A stretch of 64,000 nt of DNA from Octopus vulgaris (taxonomy: Eukaryota): assembly GCA_951406725.2 (NCBI GenBank), contig OX597827.1, positions 73,160,001 through 73,224,000 of the forward strand. The letters are read 5' to 3'. Positions within the stretch are counted from its first letter, which is position 1. The number at the start of each line of letters is the position of its first letter. The position numbers and the translations under genes are program-made. The notes under the pieces are model-generated. The model did no database searches, had not been told where the DNA came from, and saw nothing but the letters and a program-made list of their open reading frames with translations. Shown in pieces: positions 4,236 through 61,273 of the stretch.

Positions 4236-5227
4236 TCCTGTATATATAATTATAGACTACACATACATGAATGCACACACACATACACATGTACATATGT
4301 TTATATGTATGCACCTATGTGTGTGTGCATGTGTAGGCTATAATGCTATCTCATTCATTATCGTCAATTTTACAAACAGTTTTTATTAATTACAGAAGTC
4401 AGTGTTAAAGAGAGTATTTCTTATGGCTAGATACTCTTCCTATCCTCAAACCTCACTTCTTTACAAATAAGGTATATTGCCCCAACGGCCAGACTTTGCA
4501 AAATATTGGAAAGAAGCGACATTTGTTTCTAACAATTACGTAATGAGATGAGAGACTAACGTACAAAAACAACAGGCTTCATTCAGTGAAATTATGTATT
4601 TCACTCATGTTAGTTAAATTCATTTCAATCGCGCTTCGCTTTGGAAAATTTTTTACAAGGCTTGAACTTCCATTATAGTAGTATCTATGGAAGACCGGTG
4701 GGATAATTATTTATATGAACTTAAAGATTGATCGCAATATAGCATATAATTTAGTTATGGCAGTTTACTATTAATACCGATACAATGTACATTGGTTTAT
4801 ATGTCTCTTGTTGTTGTTTTAGTAAAGTTTACTCCTGTTTATATATTGATTAATTGGAATTATGAGGTTATTAAGCTTTTACTTTTATATTGCACTACGG
4901 AAGACGGTAGGGATTATAATTGTGTATGGCTTAATAGAGTTGTCGCTGTTTAGTTAGGTATTTAAGAGTGCTTGTAATTTGATTATGGAATTTATTTATT
5001 GATACGGTTGTACATTGGGTAAATGTGTTTGAAAGTTGTGGTTTCTTTGGTTTGTTTGTTCAAAAACAACACTTATTTTAGTGCTATTGTCATTGCCGGA
5101 TTGACTGGTACTGCCGAAGGGTCGAAACCATAATGATATCCGTGGGGCAGCTGATGATGGAGGTATGTTGGATTGTTGGTATGGCTGGGGAATAGTATTA
5201 TAACACATCATTTTCATATATATATAC

Positions 5228-20905: not shown

Positions 20906-21219
20906 CTTACGTTGCGTAAGCTGTAAGCTTGTATACCCGTTACGTTCTGCATTACTGAAAAAAAAATTACTGAAATAATTACCCAGCAGAATAAAATAAA
21001 TCCGTTCATAAAATCCACTGTCTTCGGCAGCCGTGCTCCAGTATGGCCCCAGACAAAGGGGCAGCACATGTATGTATGTATGTATGTATGTATCTACACA
21101 TGAATATAGCTATATATGTATGTAACTAACTACCGACATATACACAAACACACATCTAAGTATATGCAAACTTGTGGCTATTTGGTGTTGCCCAGGAAAG
21201 AAATATATATATATATAAA

Positions 21220-21590
21220 TTTAATTAGAGATAAAAACCACTATTAGGCAAATCAAACAGAAAATCATAAACCAAAACATAAAAATAAATATAATTAATA
21301 TAATATACAAAATATATATAATATAAAATTTTAAATTTAAAATTTTTAATTTATATTTATAAATTTTATATCTTTTTATATATTTTAAAAATTTAAATTT
21401 ATAAATTCTTAAACTTTTAATTTTTTAATTTTTTAATTTATTAATTTGTAAATTTTTTTTTTATAACTATCAAAAAGTATTAAAAAGTTTAATATAATAT
21501 AAGTAAAACCACTATATATATATATGTACATATATGCATATATGTATATATAATAATAAAATTAGGGAGCTTTATCTCTAATTTAATATA
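21220..21590 (-). mobile_element. AT-rich (TA)n-abutting repeat terminus (copies at ~39611-39645 and ~40385-40450)
   Basis: Shared end gtttgatttgcctaatagtggttttatctctaattt followed by TA-rich tracts. Confidence 0.55.
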
Positions 21591-26066: not shown

Positions 26067-26863
26067 TAGGACTACATTATCAATTGTGCTCACCCGACAG
26101 GACTACATCATCTAACGTGTCTTTCCTGCATCGTGTGTCTAGGACTACATTATCAATTGTGCTCACCCGACAGGACTACATCATCTAACGTGTCTTTCCT
26201 GCATCGTGTGTCTAGGACTACATTATCAATTGTGCTCACCCGACAGGACTACATCATCTAACGTGTCTTTCCTGCATCGTGTGTCTAGGACTACATTATC
26301 AATTGTGCTCACCCGACAGGACTACATCATCTAACGTGTCTTTCCTGCATCGTGTGTCTAGGACTATATTATCAATTGTGCTCACCCGACAGGACTACAT
26401 CATCTAACGTGTCTTTCCTGCATCGTGTGTCTAGGACTACATTATTATTTACAATGTGTCCATCTGTGTCTAGACTAATTATCAATTGTGCTCACCCGAC
26501 AGGACTACATCATCTAACGTGTCTTTCCTGCATCTATCAGTGCTCACCGACAGGACTACATCATAACGTGTCTTTCCTGCATCGTGTGTCTAGGACTATA
26601 TCATTTAATGTGTCCATCTGGCAGAGTGAATCTAGGACTCATTATCCAGTGTGTTCCCATGACATATTGTATCAATGTTTGTTTCCATTGTTTACGAGAA
26701 TCGACGGAGTGAGAGTATCCATACCGCTTCCACCGTCAGCTTGGTGCTGTTATCCTGTTTGCTACTGCGACGATTTTTGTTGTAAATACGTGTCTTTCCT
26801 GCATCGTGTGTCTAGGACTATATTATCAATTGTGCTCACCCGACAGGACTACATCATCTAACG
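26067..26863. repeat. 73-bp minisatellite (5 near-perfect copies plus degenerate copies)
   Basis: taggactacattatcaattgtgctcacccgacaggactacatcatctaacgtgtctttcctgcatcgtgtgtc with period 73 from 26067. Confidence 0.95.
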
Positions 26864-29351: not shown

Positions 29352-29353
<2 letters not shown>

Positions 29354-29548
29354 AGGGGGAGAATTCACAAAAAAAACAAACAAACGAAAGCAAGTGGTGT
29401 AGGCAACAAACAGATGTATTAGTATTACGCTCGGGCAGTGAAAAAGTCTTTAACGTTTCGAGCCTACGCTCTTCTACAGAAAGGAACACAGGAAGAAACA
29501 AGGAGAGAAAATAAAGAATGTGTAGTGGCTAGTGAACTATCATGGCGA
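29352..29548 (-). mobile_element. PLE-like terminal fragment carrying a hammerhead-like motif (same family as 32006-32148)
   Basis: Its reverse complement matches 32006-32148; in both copies the 3' end (..ctccc) abuts (TA)n. Confidence 0.7.
29448..29483 (-). ncRNA. Minimal type I hammerhead-like motif (A6U core variant)
   Basis: cttt CTGTAGA A GAGC gtag GCTC GAAA CG TT aaag. Confidence 0.55.
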
Positions 29549-30680
29549 TCTATACGCATATATGTGTATATTGATGTGTTGAGTGTCCAGAGGCTACAGA
29601 GATCCGTACCATGTTTTCGTTCCGTTAATGCGAAGCACTTCATCTCTTACACACGAAGAGACAGTCTTAAACACTTCAAGAATAAAACTGCCTTTATGCG
29701 TTCTGAATATAAATATGTGTGCGAGCGCACGCGCGTGTGTGTGCATGTATGTGTTTTTGTGTGTGTGTGTTTGTGTGTGTGCGTGTGCGTATTTTGTGGA
29801 CTTTTGAGAGAACATAAAATAATTATGGCAATAATGATGATAATAATAAAACAAGTACTACTGCATCACTACTACTTTCTACCATGACCACCACTAACAA
29901 CAACAATAATAGATGAGACGGTAATGATGTTGGCAGTGTTACGTATATTAACATTGATTTGATTGAAATCTAAAATTTCTGGAAAATTGTAGGAATAGTA
30001 GCAATAGAATTCAATGAAAAGAGGAATGTTTTTGACAACATTCTTCAATATAGCCACACAATTATTTCTTTAATTGCGGTCAAAATAAGGAAATCTTGAC
30101 GTGCCCACCATACCGAGACGACTAAGGCGCTCACCAATTGCCGAAAATATTTCGATGAATAAAGCGGGATAACTGCTAACCAATTTGGCACATCTACTAA
30201 CCCATGACATCTAAGCCACATACTGATTGATCTAAATACAGCTAATACTTAGTTGGTGCACTCACTAAACAATGATATCTTAGCTGGTTACTGATTGGTC
30301 AAAACACAGTTCGTAAGATTCAGTCTGCTGGAGCCAATCGGAAGTTATTTAAAGGTCAAGTGAATAATTTCACTAGCGTTGTCAATTGTGGAACACGACT
30401 GTCACAACTACTGCATAAACCTGATGATTGCGTAACGCACGAAAGTACTAGTTTTATCACGACAAATATATATTCTGTTATAATATAATTGTGAAATTGT
30501 AAATAATAAAACATGGAAATCAAATTAGGTTGGAATTTCATTGGTTAATATATGCTTTTATGCACAATCAGGCAAACCCTGGTGCGAAACTGTTTGACTC
30601 TCTGGTCGATAACTGATGATGAGCTGGGGACCTTTTGTGTCTGTTTTTCGTTTACGCATTTACTTACTATACGTTTTTAA

Positions 30681-30727: not shown

Positions 30728-31025
30728 ATCATGGATAAGAAGCATTTCTACCCAATCTACACAACACTTTCCTTGGATAATGGAACTGCAACTGAAACAC
30801 CTAACATATATTTTTACTTTATTTTTATTCTTTTATTTACCTTTATACTTCCTATATCAATCCTTTTCCAAAATAACTCCTTATATTGAACTTTACTACT
30901 TCTCTCATATCGCCCCTGATGAAGGGATATTCCTAATATCTCGGAAACAGCTGTAAGACTACCTTTCTCTTTATAAATGTTCTATAAATTCTACACAGCC
31001 TTAGTTTTGTTGTCTCATTTTTTAA
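30724..31025 (+). mobile_element. PLE-like 3' fragment with hammerhead motif
   Basis: Lies between (TA)n and (CA)n; contains CTGATGA...GAAACAGCTGTA. Confidence 0.6.
30910..30961 (+). ncRNA. Minimal type I hammerhead ribozyme motif with eroded stem I
   Basis: CTGATGA A GGGATAT tccta ATATCTC G GAAA CAGCTG TA agact; palindromic stem III. Confidence 0.6.
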
Positions 31026-31858: not shown

Positions 31859-32022
31859 GTGTGTGTGTATGTGTGTGTGAAAAATACAAAATGGGACAAG
31901 AACGCCCGTCCTTATTTTCTTTTTATCGTCTAGCTAGATGTTTTGTTGTCCCTTTCTTTATGACCTGTCCGGATGTTTTGCGTTCTTATCCCATTTTGTA
32001 TATATGTATTTTGTCTGTGTCC

Positions 32023-32057
32023 CCTTCTGTAAAGAGCGTAGGCTCGAAACGTAAAAG
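32023..32057 (+). ncRNA. Hammerhead-like relic (second copy of the 29448-29483 motif)
   Basis: cctt CTGTAAA GAGC gtag GCTC GAAA CG TA aaag. Confidence 0.45.
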
Positions 32058-32145
32058 ACTTTTCCTATTCCCGAGCTTTATACTAATACATCTGTTTGTT
32101 TTGTACACCACCTGTCTTCGTCTTTTGTGTTTTTTCGTAACCTCT

Positions 32146-32252
<107 letters not shown>

Positions 32253-39552: not shown

Positions 39553-39612
<60 letters not shown>

Positions 39613-39668
39613 ATTAGAGATAAAACCACTATTTGTCAAATCAAATATATATATATATATATATAAAG

Positions 39669-39700
<32 letters not shown>

Positions 39701-40456
39701 AAGAAAGAGAGAGAGAGAGAGAGAAATGCAAAAGTCTTGGAATTACAGCATTTTAAAGTGAGGGACAACCGTGGGAAGGAGGACGTTTGGTGAAGTAGCC
39801 GTGCGTTGAGTACGGGGAAATGACGTTCAATTCTAATCACGTACAGGAGAGACATCCGTGTTGAAATCCATGGAAGACACACCCTCGGCAGGTCATTGCA
39901 AACTGACCCCTGACCAGAAGTTCGAGGGCTGGAAAACAACATGGCATTTGTCGGCAAGGAATAAAGAGTTTCCATGACTAGAATTTATAAAAATTAAATT
40001 ACATTACAATAACAACAGAAAATAATGAAAGACACCTTCCTTAATGAATCTGTTTATCTCAGTCTGTTCTCTTCCCCTCTCCTTCCGTGTGTGTGTGTGT
40101 GTGTGTGTGTGCGTGTGCGTGTGTCTGTGTATGTGTGTCTATGTATATGCATGTATATATATCTTTTATTAAACTTTTAATACTTTTGATATTTATTTAA
40201 AAAAAAAATAAATAAATAAAAATAAATAAATAAATAATTAATTAATTAATAAACAAAATAATATATAAATATAAAATAATATACATACATATATATATAT
40301 ATTTGTGTATATATATTTAAAATTTATAAGTTTAAATTATTTTAATAATTTTTTAATTTTTAACTTTTATATTTTTTAATTAATTTTATGTATTGGCTTA
40401 TGTTTTTCACTGTTTGATTTGCCTAATAGTGGTTTTATCTCTAATTTAATATAATA

Positions 40457-40519
<63 letters not shown>

Positions 40520-40526
40520 GAAGGAG

Positions 40527-40573
40527 CTTCTACAGGACTAGAACTGTTTCATTCAAGAGAAATCTTCAGGAAG
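40527..40573 (-). ncRNA. Type I hammerhead ribozyme motif with canonical core
   Basis: cttc CTGAAGA T TTC tctt GAA T GAAA CAG ttctagtc CTG TA gaag; all three stems present; embedded in (TA)n. Confidence 0.75.
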
Positions 40574-40765
40574 ATTATATATATATATATTTATATATAT
40601 ATATATGTATATATATATTGTGTAACTAAAACAGTTTAACTTTTTAACGCAAGCGTGTGTTCCTCAATCTTCTGGATCTCCACAGATCAGAGTCCAATCC
40701 ACCTTTGTAGGATAAATGGGCATATTTAATTTATTTTCCTCACTATAATTGATATATATAAATCC

Positions 40766-40998
40766 AGGTAGTGGGAGTGGTGCTGGTAACATTCAGACTA
40801 CATATGTTTCGTGGCTAGCAGATCCCCTGATGTTAGTATCATTCAACGAGGGTTACTCAGCCAGCGACTCACCAGGCCAAAGATACCTTAATTACACATG
40901 TGTACCTGTCTGAGTACCCCTCGTTGAGTAATTATCATATCAGAGAATCTTCTTGCTAGGAAGCATGAGTAGTTTGAATTTTACCTGCTCCATTGCCT
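40766..40998. repeat. Imperfect long inverted repeat (~90-100 bp arms)
   Basis: ttcaacgagggttactcagccag pairs with ctgtctgagtacccctcgttga; arms extend out to aggtagtgg / ccattgcct. Confidence 0.75.
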
Positions 40999-41200
40999 CA
41001 GCAACTCAAGATGGCAATTTTGAGGTATAAAAAAATGTTTTCAGCTTTTCGAACTTCGATATAGGAAAAGCTGACAATCTTCGATGCTAATAAAATATTA
41101 TTCTCCCTGAACATTGTTTTTTTATATCTAACAGGGACTTCTCGAAGCTTACTATCTTCCCACAATTAGATCCTTGACTCTTATATATATATATATATAT

Positions 41201-42325: not shown

Positions 42326-42925
42326 ACGGAGATGTAGTTGCATAGCAAGTGACCTGATCTGTGATCGTGTGCTGGAACGAAAATAATTGCAGCGTGGAAG
42401 GTATTTATTAACCATTTAAAAAACACACAAAATCCGTTAGATTCACTTCAACATTTAAATTTAAAAATTTAATTTCTCAAAATATTTTCGGCGCTTTGAG
42501 ACCCCGACCTGTTCACTGACAAAAATCCGTGCAGCACGGATTTTTGTCAGTGAACAGGTCGGGGTCTCAAAGCGACGAAAATATTTTGTCACGGATTTTT
42601 GTCAGTGAACAGGTCGGAGTCTCAAAGCGACGAAAATATTTTGTCACGGATTTTTGTCAGTGAACAGGTCGGGGTCTCAAAGCGACGAAAATATTTTGTC
42701 GCGGATTTTTGTCAGTGAACAGGTCGGAGGTCTCAAAGCGACGAAAATATTTTGTCACGGATTTTTGTCAGTGAACAGGTCGGGGGTCTCAAAGCGACGA
42801 AAATATTTTGTTACGGATTTTTGTCAGTGAACAGGTCGGGGTCTCAAAGCGACGAAAATATTTTGACAAATTAAATTTAAATGTTGAACTGAACTTAAAT
42901 GTTGAACTGAACTTAAATGTTGAAG
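42326..42925. mobile_element. PLE-like fragment with head-to-head inversion and tandem hammerhead-like array
   Basis: Starts after (TA)n; symmetry centre tccgtgc-a-gcacgga at 42533; six 55-56 bp units on the right arm. Confidence 0.65.
42536..42870 (+). ncRNA. Six tandem minimal hammerhead-like units with G3-C8 core
   Basis: TTTGTCA GTGAACA G GTCG gggtctcaaag CGAC GAAA ATAT TT TGACAAA (last unit); unit starts at 42536, 42591, 42646, 42701, 42757, 42813. Confidence 0.6.
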
Positions 42926-45560: not shown

Positions 45561-46053
45561 TTGTTTCGACACATCTAGCTTTGATCCCTCACGGGTGGGA
45601 CACTTAACAGCTGGTTCAGAAGCATCCAGCGGTGCAGATGTGTCTCATCGCGTGATAAATAGATATAACTCGTTAAAACAACAGCCCCGAAATGTATCTT
45701 CTCATTTTGTAGAAAGAAAAGCAGGAAATCGAAGGAAATGTCTTCATTTTTATAGAAGATCCAAAATAAAATAAGATAAAAGATGCAAAAGAGAAACGAC
45801 CACTCAATACAGCAAGAAAAGTATTAAAAGTAACTGTTAATATACATGGATGTATAAATGCTCTCGCGCAAGCTGCATGGCGCGAGTACATTCGCTCATA
45901 GAAGCATTCGCGAAATTGTAAGCATATGCACACGTGTGGTTTGGTGAACACACACTCACATGACGAGTTTAATAGCTATTTGGTGCTTATAAGAATGGGA
46001 AGGTTAAAGCTAAACTTAATTCATCCATACCTTAAAGTAGATTATGTTAACAT

Positions 46054-46455
46054 TTACTCAAATTCATTCCCACTGCGTTGTCCGAAAGTACATTTATATG
46101 CATGTAGACATCTTGAGAGCCTTTCAGAAATTCTATTAATGATCTTCTTACTAGTCCACAGAATTGACAGGGATTCCTCGGAGCAGAGATGGTATCTCCT
46201 GGAAATTATATTGCATGGTTTCAAGTACCTTACTATGGACCAAGTAATACGTATTTTATGTTCCTTCTTTAGCCACATGAAATCGGCCAAAATTGTGAAG
46301 CTGGCGACATGGTTGCGATGACGATTCTTAAATAAATCATCCGTCTGCCCAATGTAAACATACGGCCCTCCCCTTGTGTTCACGTTACATCTATATACAA
46401 GATTTGTACTAATACCGAGGTTCATCAATGGGCATTTTGACTATTCTCTGCATGA
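46054..46455 (-). pseudogene. Penelope-like element GIY-YIG endonuclease domain
   Basis: CR...KCPL upstream, then LVYRC...YIGQT..LFKNRHRNHVASF...ITWSIV...LCSEE...IN...E....C.H. Confidence 0.8.
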
Positions 46456-47377: not shown

Positions 47378-47428
<51 letters not shown>

Positions 47429-47516
47429 TAAGGGGAGAAATTGATATTAATCAATTAAAACCAGTGGCCTAGCATATTTTAAAAAATCCGAAGATTAAAA
47501 ATTTTTTTACATACAA

Positions 47517-47823
47517 AATTTAGAGGACTGACTTCTAAAAGTGGACAGCCAAAACGCTAGATATAGACGTCAAAGTCGACATTTTCCACGAAGAATGTGT
47601 TCTCAGGAAAAAACTCGGCAAAAACCAAAGTGTAAAAGTAAGCAAGACAAATGGAAATATACGAATCGTTTTTTTTATTTCGTATAATTTGATTTGATTT
47701 GCTTATTTTAACACTTTGGTCTTTTGGTGAGTTTTTTCTTGAGAGCACATTCTTCGTGGAAAATGACGATTTTGACGTCAATATCTAGCGTATAGGCTGT
47801 CCAGTTTTAGTGGTCACTTTTCT

Positions 47824-47828
<5 letters not shown>
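47517..47828 (+). other. ~310-bp imperfect palindrome / long RNA hairpin inside a (TA)n-flanked insert
   Basis: Arms 47517-47643 and 47701-47828 are reverse-complementary; inner stem tatacgaa/ttcgtata. Confidence 0.9.
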
Positions 47829-54693: not shown

Positions 54694-54728
<35 letters not shown>

Positions 54729-54890
54729 AGTAATTAGACAACGATTTGCACACACCGAATTTAGAAATAGCAGTCAAAGAGTTATAGCTATTCTTTCTAC
54801 TAAAAGTAGAAAGAATAGCTATAACTCTTTGACTGCTATTTCTAAATTCGGTGTGTGGTGAGGCAAATCGTTGCTAAACCCTTAATTACT

Positions 54891-54927
<37 letters not shown>

Positions 54928-59984: not shown

Positions 59985-61273
59985 GAGGGGCGTTCAATAA
60001 GTAATGCCCCTGACCCACTTCCCTTAGCAGAAGAGCAACGAAACTTGGCACAGTTATTAGTCTTTTTCTACCTAGGAGCCACCCACAGTTACGCATTTCT
60101 CCCATCGTTTGATGCAGCTCTGGAGACCGTTTTTGTAGAAGACCCTAGCTTGGTCCTCCAACCACGACATGGCTTCAGAAATCAAGGCTGCATCATCTGG
60201 AAAACGTTTTCCTTTCAAAAACAACTTCATGGCTGGGAAGAGGTGAAAATTAGAGGGTGCACGGTCAGGAGAGTAGGGAGGTTGGGAGGAGTTCATAGCA
60301 GCACGCCTGTGCTTCTGATCTGGCGACACGCGAGTTGTGGACCGGAGCGTTGTCCTGCAGGAGGAGGATGCCTTTGCTGATCTTGCCCCGCCTCTTGATT
60401 TTGATAGCTTCTCTTAATTTCCTCAAAAGTGAAGCATAATAGGCTCCTGTAATTGTGGTACCCTTTGCCAGGAAATCTGTCATCACTACTCCGTCCTGGT
60501 CCCAGAAAACTGTGAGCATGACCATGCCAGCGGAGGGCTGCACCCTTGTCATCTTTGGAGGATGTGAGTCACGGTGCTTCCAATGCATTGACTGGGCTTT
60601 GGTCTCTGGATCATAGTGATTGACTCAGGTTTCATTCTGTGTAATCAGTCTTTTGAAAAATTTTGACTCATCTTCTTGGCACATCTCCAAATTCATCCTC
60701 GAGCACTCGACGCGTTCTTGCTTCTGGAAAGGTGTGAGCAACCCGGGAATCCATCTGGCAGACACCTTTTGCATATGCAAATGGTCATGAATGATAGTTT
60801 CCACAGACCCGGTACTAATCTTGACCTCATGGGCTATTTGGCGAATAGTTATGCGTCGATCTTCCAAAATGGCAGCCTCAACTTGACGGACAGATGCCTT
60901 ATCAATGGCAGAAGGGGGCAACCAGATCTACGAGCTGTTTCCACAGAGTTCCGACCGTGTTTGAACTCATGATGCCAGCGTTTTACAAGGTCATATGATG
61001 AGGCATCATCACCATAAGTTACTTTCATTTCATCAAAAGTCTCCCGTGGTGTGCATCCTTTCAAATACAAAAACTGGATCACTGCTTGACACTCAACAGG
61101 CTCCATTTCACACTTGACTCAGTTCAAACACCTGTAAATCAGAAACTACAATTAGTTCAGAGCTGTAATTTGCTACTTAATCTATAGAGATACAAATAAA
61201 TGCACATGCAAAATTTCAGCTAGATCAAACAAATGCAAGTGGGTCAGAGGCATAACTTATTGAACGTCCCTCG
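59984..61273 (-). mobile_element. Complete-length mariner DNA transposon (1290 bp) inserted in (TA)n
   Basis: TIRs cgaggggcgttcaataagtaatgcccctgacccactt / aagtgggtcagaggcataacttattgaacgtccctcg; TA on both sides. Confidence 0.95.
60072..61106 (-). pseudogene. Mariner transposase, frameshifted
   Basis: HTH region, KVSARWIP, ITQNET*, VMLTVFWD, LLQDNA, PPYSPDRAPSNFHLF spread over four ORF pieces. Confidence 0.93.

What the first reader, a model, noticed from the sequence alone, without database searches (positions are those of the whole stretch)
40520..40573. Isolated canonical hammerhead cassette embedded in a (TA)n tract
Seen: about 55 bp of non-repetitive sequence sits between two (TA)n runs, and nearly all of it is a minus-strand type I hammerhead: CUUC CUGAAGA U UUC ucuu GAA U GAAA CAG uucuaguc CUG UA/ GAAG. 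It has a GUA cleavage triplet, a 4-bp stem I and a 4-bp stem III with a CUAG-centred loop; the only deviation is U.U at 10.1-11.1. Inference: an ultra-short PLE-derived insertion that is little more than the ribozyme and could cleave minus-strand transcripts crossing the locus.
Basis: partly seen in the sequence, partly recalled or inferred. Interest (0 to 1): 0.7.

Follow-up and report, generated by a model that had tools for sequence, protein, structure and literature searches.

The report
Lone hammerhead relic in TA repeat
A 54-letter piece of DNA between two TA repeats in an octopus-type genome spells a self-cutting RNA motif, most likely the leftover tip of a jumping gene that targets TA repeats, a common kind of genomic debris that is probably inactive here.

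Summary
The motif is real. The 54 bp between two (TA)n runs (40520-40573) carry a minus-strand type I hammerhead with all 11 core bases and three helices; 0 of 300 and 0 of 1000 window shuffles gave a match. It is not canonical: Rfam misses it, helix II has only 3 bp, G10.1-C11.1 is absent, and two local hairpins sequester helix I, so the active fold lies 4.7-9 kcal/mol above the ensemble. The window holds two more perfect-core hammerheads with the same 1x1 mismatch under helix II, the 3' tail of a (TA)n-targeting octopus Penelope-like element (PLE), and another short cassette between TA runs. Best reading (0.6): the truncated 3' tip of a PLE-type terminal repeat, with little or no cleavage here. 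Bolder reading (0.15): one unit of a 50-nt micro-retrozyme, because the insert starts and ends with the same 4-mer, which would close helix I in a circle or tandem array. Copy number could not be tested: no genome is held, and the read-laying gave no data on the cassette. Ordinary kind, modest interest.

The parts
40449..40519 (.). (TA)n tract, downstream of the ribozyme on its own strand; likely target site
40520..40573 (-). 54-bp insert; begins and ends with the same 4-mer (GAAG on +, 40520-40523 and 40570-40573), i.e. 50-nt period plus 4-nt redundancy
   Evidence: 232 of 44563 complex 54-mers of the window have equal first and last 4 letters
40527..40573 (-). type I hammerhead motif, 47 nt
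40570..40573 (-). helix I, 5' strand (CUUC)
40563..40569 (-). core box CUGAAGA (C3-A9)
40551..40562 (-). helix II: U.U 1x1 mismatch at the base, 3 bp, 4-nt loop
40547..40550 (-). core box GAAA (G12-A15.1)
40533..40546 (-). helix III with near-palindromic loop (5 of 7 symmetric pairs, CUAG at the centre); can form a two-molecule duplex
40531..40533 (-). cleavage triplet GUA; predicted cut between 40531 and 40530
   Evidence: hammerhead numbering as in PMC4209133
40527..40530 (-). helix I, 3' strand (GAAG)
40520..40526 (-). 7-nt pyrimidine tail ending in a second CUUC; resembles the pyrimidine-rich 3' ends with which other hammerhead-bearing repeats meet (TA)n
   Evidence: weak, by eye
40517..40533 (-). 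competing hairpin (7 bp, -4.3 kcal/mol) that captures the 3' strand of helix I and the cleavage site
40560..40576 (-). competing hairpin (-1.6 kcal/mol) that pairs the 5' strand of helix I with the core box
40576..40618 (.). (TA)n tract, upstream of the ribozyme on its own strand
40160..40450 (+). end of a different (TA)n-abutting repeat sharing the left tract; link to the cassette not shown

Best explanation
The cassette is the extreme 3' tip of a hammerhead-bearing terminal repeat of a Penelope-like element, or of a non-autonomous derivative. A PLE endonuclease nicked a (TA)n tract and reverse transcription was primed there on the 3' end of an uncleaved RNA. Copying stopped, or the rest was later lost, just past helix I, leaving 54 bp between TA runs. 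In the parent element the ribozyme would process tandem transcripts, probably as a dimer through the near-palindromic helix III. At this locus it is a stranded relic with little or no cleavage. Shown: the motif, its chance level, the competing folds, and the PLE-rich (TA)n context. Inferred: the parent element, the insertion mechanism and the inactivity.
For: Motif beyond chance. Features of metazoan PLE hammerheads in PMC4209133: 4-5 bp helix I, an H after A9, palindromic 15.2-16.2 region, mostly single copies from truncated PLEs. Three of 3 perfect-core motifs found by the descriptor (30421+, 30916+, 40569-) share a 1x1 mismatch under helix II, a (near-)palindromic helix III and A17; 0 of 1000 shuffles gave 3. 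So U.U looks like a local architecture, not decay. A two-copy repeat with a textbook min-HHR runs into (TA)n on the ribozyme strand, in the same orientation as the cassette. Octopus Naiads insert in (TA)n and a Naiad-like tail abuts (TA)n at 5215. A 37-bp stub of another repeat sits between TA runs 900 bp away, so ultra-short stubs occur here. Active fold disfavoured by 4.7 (56 nt), 8.0 (+/-20 nt) and 9.0 kcal/mol (both tracts). Helix III self-duplex -14.2 against hairpin -2.1 kcal/mol.
Against: No parent element or second copy found: none in the window, 0 pattern hits in metagenome, viral and prokaryote collections (collections poorly suited to animal DNA), and no cephalopod hit for three cassette motifs in the Naiad/Hydra/Chlamys supplement (the single hit was an 11-mer near the Chlamys entries). 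The PLE consensus G10.1-C11.1 and long helix II are absent. The insert ends exactly at the edge of helix I and carries a 4-nt terminal repeat, which this reading leaves to coincidence (about 0.5%). Folding energies omit core tertiary contacts and were not calibrated on a known active ribozyme.
Confidence: 0.6

Rival explanations
1. Solo copy of a 50-nt micro-retrozyme. The unit is only the hammerhead, with all three helices closed by loops (helix I by a 3-nt loop). A circular or tandem RNA was reverse-transcribed for just over one round by PLE enzymes into (TA)n, leaving a 4-nt terminal repeat.
For: The insert is exactly 50 + 4 nt, the repeated 4-mer is the 5' strand of helix I, and its second copy lies 3 nt after the 3' strand. 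Equal ends occur in 232 of 44563 complex 54-mers. Retrozyme family consensus lengths go down to 51 bp and solo monomers are common (10.64898/2026.07.22.740005). An active axolotl retrozyme ribozyme has U.U at the base of helix II (PMC7229834).
Against: No tandem unit at the locus. Folded as a circle, the 50-mer leaves the active fold 5.6-5.9 kcal/mol above the ensemble, no better than the linear core at 4.0. The feature was noticed after the fact. The pyrimidine tail is also explained as a usual 3' end next to (TA)n. Expressed retrozyme circles described so far are about 170-400 nt.
Confidence: 0.15
2. Chance match: a random or repair-derived 54-bp insertion that happens to spell the motif, with helix I borrowed from short junction palindromes.
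For: Weak helices (4/3/4 bp). No Rfam hit. Folds no better than shuffles (z +1.4). At 2e-5 to 2e-4 per window, a scan of some 250,000 windows would produce 5-50 such hits. No second copy seen.
Against: The motif fills 47 of 54 bases. The core boxes alone arise in 252 of 200000 shuffles of the insert. It shares its architecture with two other motifs in the window. No template in the flanks: equal or better scores in 74, 40 and 67 of 381 control stretches.
Confidence: 0.1
3. Functional or co-opted ribozyme that cuts a host transcript crossing the locus on the minus strand, with the flanking (UA)n arms extending helix I.
For: Core intact with no substitution. Helix III (4 bp) is longer than in most metazoan PLE ribozymes and could allow monomer activity. 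The constrained fold shows the (UA)n arms can close the motif.
Against: Adding the (UA)n flanks worsens the active fold from 4.7 to 8-9 kcal/mol above the ensemble. No host gene was identified: of the 121 ORFs of at least 100 aa, 9 were scanned against Pfam and only transposase families passed or neared cut-off. Only 1 of 9 predicted Xenopus retrozyme dimers cleaved in vitro.
Confidence: 0.08

Closest known systems
Minimal type I hammerheads in terminal repeats of metazoan Penelope-like elements (Cervera and de la Pena 2014, PMC4209133)
   Same: Type I topology, full core, an H after A9, 4-bp helix I without defined loop 1, near-palindromic helix III region, occurrence as a single stranded motif; helix I CUUC/GAAG also occurs in the Ixodes (1) row of their Fig. 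S3.
   Different: Helix II is 3 bp with U.U at its base, not typically 4-8 bp closed by G10.1-C11.1. Helix III is 4 bp with an 8-nt loop, not 0-2 bp. No terminal-repeat sequence or ORF is attached.
Non-LTR retrozymes (Cervera and de la Pena 2020, PMC7229834; Li, Clavereau and Pollet 2026, 10.64898/2026.07.22.740005), including axolotl HHR_Amex2
   Same: Type I hammerhead in a non-coding insert; U.U at the base of helix II as in HHR_Amex2 (22% cleavage in 1 h as monomer, more as dimer); solo monomers known; shortest family consensus 51 bp.
   Different: No tandem array. The putative unit is 50 nt against 170-400 nt for the expressed circles. No evidence of loop 1-loop 2 contacts or of RNA.
(TA)n-targeting PLE clades Neptune and Naiad (Craig et al. 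2021, PMC8557442)
   Same: Insertion in (TA)n with no readable target-site duplication; 30-40 bp tails at insertion ends; octopus Naiads listed with (TA)n preference.
   Different: Naiads lack canonical hammerheads, so they are not the likely donor. No sequence match to a Neptune terminal repeat could be tested.

Membership tests
Type I hammerhead ribozyme | Core CUGANGA, GAAA, UH in type I order | tested here: met
   11 of 11 bases
Type I hammerhead ribozyme | Helices I, II and III can pair around the core | tested here: met
   4, 3 (+U.U) and 3+1 bp; 0 of 300 shuffles
Type I hammerhead ribozyme | Match to Rfam hammerhead models | tested here: not met
   0 hits at gathering score; 5 unrelated hits and no hammerhead at E<=10
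Type I hammerhead ribozyme | Active fold accessible | tested here: inconclusive
   4.0-13 kcal/mol above the ensemble by context; model lacks tertiary terms, no positive control folded
Type I hammerhead ribozyme | Self-cleavage after H17 | not testable with these tools
   needs an in vitro assay
Canonical metazoan type I HHR | Helix I 6 bp, helix II 4 bp, G10.1-C11.1, conserved loop 1-loop 2 contact bases | tested here: not met
   4 bp, 3 bp and U.U against the description in PMC4209133; loop contacts not assessed beyond inspection
PLE minimal HHR | Extra base after A9; helix I 4-5 bp | tested here: met
   U follows A9; 4 bp
PLE minimal HHR | Palindromic 15.2-16.2 and loop 3 | tested here: inconclusive
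   5 of 7 symmetric pairs, CUAG centre (chance 0.07); self-duplex -14.2 kcal/mol
PLE minimal HHR | Long helix II closed by G10.1-C11.1 | tested here: not met
   3 bp with U.U
PLE minimal HHR | Lies in the terminal repeat of an RT/GIY-YIG element | not testable with these tools
   no genome held; read-laying gave no data on the cassette
Non-LTR retrozyme | Two or more tandem units, each with an HHR | tested here: not met
   no such array at the locus; elsewhere in the genome not testable
Non-LTR retrozyme | Unit length within the known range (51-972 bp consensus) | tested here: inconclusive
   putative 50-nt period
Non-LTR retrozyme | Expressed as linear and circular monomer RNA | not testable with these tools
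   no RNA holder listed

The most novel reading that the evidence does not exclude
The insert is one unit plus 4 nt of a 50-nt micro-retrozyme: a mobile element that is nothing but a hammerhead with all three helices loop-closed, copied from a circular or tandem RNA into (TA)n by PLE enzymes. It would belong to an octopus hammerhead lineage that replaces G10.1-C11.1 by a 1x1 mismatch. It would be at or below the smallest retrozyme unit reported (51 bp) and close to the smallest possible self-cleaving mobile element.
Probability: 0.15. Interest if true: 0.65.

Novelty: new member of a known kind. Interest (0 to 1): 0.3.

Why it matters
On the best reading it matters little: animal genomes hold thousands of stranded PLE-type hammerheads (PMC4209133). 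Two small points remain. Cephalopod hammerheads did not come up as a subject in the held library (searches; the octopus repeat annotation PMC13282606 never mentions ribozymes). And 3 of 3 perfect-core motifs here share a helix II base that standard descriptors and Rfam may miss. If the 50-nt reading held, it would set a lower size limit for retrozymes and give a simple test case for how hammerhead RNAs use PLE enzymes.

Tried and rejected
Whole-genome search: no genome is held. Sequencing runs: 7 of 24 listed runs hold at least half of the words of 40520-41170 (organism labels A-D); no RNA holder listed; the small shares say nothing. Read-laying on 4 of the 24 runs: the tool skipped the repeat-containing part that includes the cassette, so copy number, presence in other organisms and expression stay open; nothing was laid from the RNA-guess run. 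Pattern scans: 11 viral loci for a loose pattern, all without the helices and read as coding-type chance matches; 0 hits for the helix-specific pattern in metagenome, viral and prokaryote contigs; 0 for the neighbouring repeat's end in metagenomes. Rfam: nothing relevant. A relaxed min-HHR scan allowing core mismatches found 2 sites (29479-, 33417+) against a mean of 0.76 in 288 shuffles: not significant, and it missed the cassette by design. Templated copying from the flanks: rejected. Circular folding gave no support for the 50-nt circle. GAAG as a 4-bp target-site duplication: not excluded, but half of helix I would then come from the target by chance. Earlier findings of the scan: five answered look-ups, none relevant. 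Lunse et al. 2017 is not held, known only through passages of PMC6765202. Supplements not seen that may bear on the claims: PMC7229834 (unreadable), the Li et al. preprint (closed; would show the 51-bp family), PMC13282606 (listed, not read).

Full report
Observation. The sequence is as described. Between (TA)n runs at 40449-40519 and 40576-40618 lie 54 non-repetitive bases, 40520-40573. On the minus strand 47 of them form a type I hammerhead: helix I (4 bp), CUGAAGA, a U.U pair then a 3-bp helix II, GAAA, helix III (3 bp plus A15.1-U16.1) with an 8-nt loop centred on CUAG, and GUA. It was the only hit in the window for three descriptors; 0, 0 and 4 of 300 dinucleotide shuffles gave any hit. 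The computed expectation is 2e-5 to 2e-4 per window, and the two core boxes alone appear in 252 of 200000 shuffles of the insert. The descriptors were fitted after seeing the motif, so these figures are optimistic. Rfam finds no hammerhead at gathering score or at E<=10, so 'canonical' is too strong.

Folding. The minimum-energy fold is not the ribozyme (z +1.4 against shuffles). The insert holds two CUUC and two GAAG words on the ribozyme strand. The active fold uses one pairing of them; two local hairpins (40560-40576, -1.6; 40517-40533, -4.3 kcal/mol) use the others and capture both strands of helix I. The active fold lies 4.0 kcal/mol above the ensemble for the bare core, 4.7 for the cassette, 8.0 with 20-nt flanks, 9.0 with both TA tracts and 10-13 in 300-500 nt. 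Lower temperature does not help. The helix III strand forms a self-duplex of -14.2 against a hairpin of -2.1 kcal/mol, which fits the dimer mode described for metazoan hammerheads (PMC4209133; PMC6765202). These energies omit tertiary contacts and no known active ribozyme was folded as a control, so inactivity is inferred, not shown.

Surroundings. The window is microsatellite-rich animal DNA. Bases 4700-5215 match, by eye, the 3' tail of the published Naiad_Obim consensus and end at a (TA)n run; octopus Naiads are listed with (TA)n preference. This points to an octopus genome. PMC8557442 states that Naiads and Neptunes are biased to (TA)n, that target-site duplications often cannot be read there, that 30-40 bp tails occur at insertion ends, and that Naiads lack canonical hammerheads. 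A PLE-type descriptor with a perfect core found 3 motifs (30421+, 30916+ with helix I at 2 of 4 pairs, 40569-). All three have a 1x1 mismatch under helix II (U.C, A.G, U.U), a palindromic or near-palindromic helix III and A17. None of 1000 shuffles gave 3 hits, and none gave even one hit when 4 helix I pairs were required. The U.U is therefore probably a local architecture. A two-copy repeat (29352-29545 minus, 31990-32148 plus; 82% mean column identity) carries a typical min-HHR with a damaged first box and ends in a pyrimidine-rich motif at (TA)n on the ribozyme strand, the same orientation as the cassette. An ORF fragment at 46054-46440 has atlas neighbours at 0.95-0.96, one cluster carrying GIY-YIG in 11% of members (no Pfam hit). 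A different repeat ends at the left TA tract (40160-40450), recurs at 21219-21501 and survives as a 37-bp stub between two TA runs at 39608-39644. Short stubs in (TA)n are thus not unique to this cassette. A looser scan allowing core mismatches was not significant (2 sites against a mean of 0.76 in 288 shuffles).

Copies. None in the window: best non-self score 24, against 21-29 for 40 shuffled inserts. No genome is held. Seven of 24 listed runs, under four organism labels, hold at least half of the words of the locus and its right flank; no RNA holder was listed. Laying four of them gave no data on the cassette, because the tool skipped the repeat-containing part. Helix-specific patterns found nothing in metagenome, viral or prokaryote contigs, which are poor places to look for animal repeats.

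Mechanism. Most likely (0.6) this is the 3' tip of a hammerhead-bearing PLE-type terminal repeat, inserted by target-primed reverse transcription at (TA)n from an uncleaved RNA and cut short just beyond helix I. The RNA must have been uncleaved or re-ligated, since the DNA spans the cut site. PMC4209133 reports that most such motifs occur singly, probably from truncated PLEs, and cleave poorly. In the 2026 preprint 1 of 9 predicted retrozyme dimers cleaved. The bolder rival (0.15) starts from an exact detail: the insert begins and ends with the same 4-mer, which is the 5' strand of helix I, and the second copy lies 3 nt after the 3' strand. That is what a slightly-more-than-unit copy of a 50-nt circle or tandem unit would leave. 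Equal ends occur in 232 of 44563 complex 54-mers, and retrozyme consensus lengths reach down to 51 bp. Against it, the circle folds no better (5.6-5.9 kcal/mol above the ensemble), no tandem is present, and the feature was seen after the fact. Chance (0.1) and a co-opted cutter of host RNA (0.08) are less likely.

Comparison. [quoted passage not shown] It fails some defining features of each named subgroup: G10.1-C11.1 and long helix II for PLE min-HHRs, helix lengths for canonical metazoan HHRs, tandem arrangement for retrozymes. U.U at the base of helix II is known from the active axolotl HHR_Amex2. One of the 56 rows of Fig. S3 in PMC4209133 shows an extra base before GAAA. Searches listed no paper on cephalopod hammerheads or on retrozymes targeted to microsatellites; subscription papers are mostly not held.

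Papers seen. 10.64898/2026.07.22.740005: parts 1-3 of 5. PMC8557442: passages and supplement search hits. PMC7229834: passages and section 15. PMC4209133: parts 1-2 of 4 and supplement parts 1-2 of 3. PMC6765202: passages. PMC13282606: part 1 of 3 and a word search. Others: search listings only. Target-primed reverse transcription and the labels SINE and MITE are recalled knowledge, not call results.

Verdict. Observation confirmed; interpretation partly supported; new member of a known kind; interest 0.3.

Noticed in passing
window 30417-30455 (+): A second intact type I hammerhead: full core, 4-bp helix I, U.C then 4-bp helix II, palindromic GUAC, CUA cleavage triplet; about 230 nt upstream of a (TA)n run.
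   Followed up: partly
window 30912-30960 (+): Third perfect-core hammerhead with A.G then 8-bp helix II and palindromic CAGCUG; helix I only 2 of 4 pairs.
   Followed up: partly
window 29352-29545 (-) and 31990-32148 (+): Two copies of a repeat with a PLE-type min-HHR (damaged first box) whose 3' end abuts (TA)n.
   Followed up: partly
window 45595-46440 (-): GIY-YIG-like ORF fragment (46054-46440) followed about 400 bp downstream by a badly decayed hammerhead-like stretch (by eye).
   Followed up: partly
window 4700-5215 (+): 3' tail of a Naiad PLE matching the published Naiad_Obim consensus by eye, ending at (TA)n.
   Followed up: partly
window 39608-39644, 40160-40450, 21219-21501, 21565-21587: AT-rich repeat family whose conserved end abuts (TA)n; one copy is a 37-bp stub between two TA runs; 39610 and 40450 face each other as inverted ends 840 bp apart.
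   Followed up: partly
window 40664-40667: Contigs of organisms B and D carry about 250 extra bases here with a 4-letter overlap: an insertion/deletion difference 90 bp from the cassette.
   Followed up: no
window 40773-40997: 99-nt inverted arms, 74% complementary; several contigs pile up from 40754 on, so probably a multi-copy MITE-like element.
   Followed up: no
window 47423-47827 and 54726-54893: Two more inserts bounded by (TA)n on both sides, each with a large internal inverted duplication.
   Followed up: no
window 60075-60927 (-): Fragmented transposase (Pfam Transposase_1, E 5e-23).
   Followed up: no
window 26067-26445 and 42535-42865: Minisatellites of 73 bp x 5.2 and 55 bp x 6.0; no hammerhead scan hit in them.
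   Followed up: no
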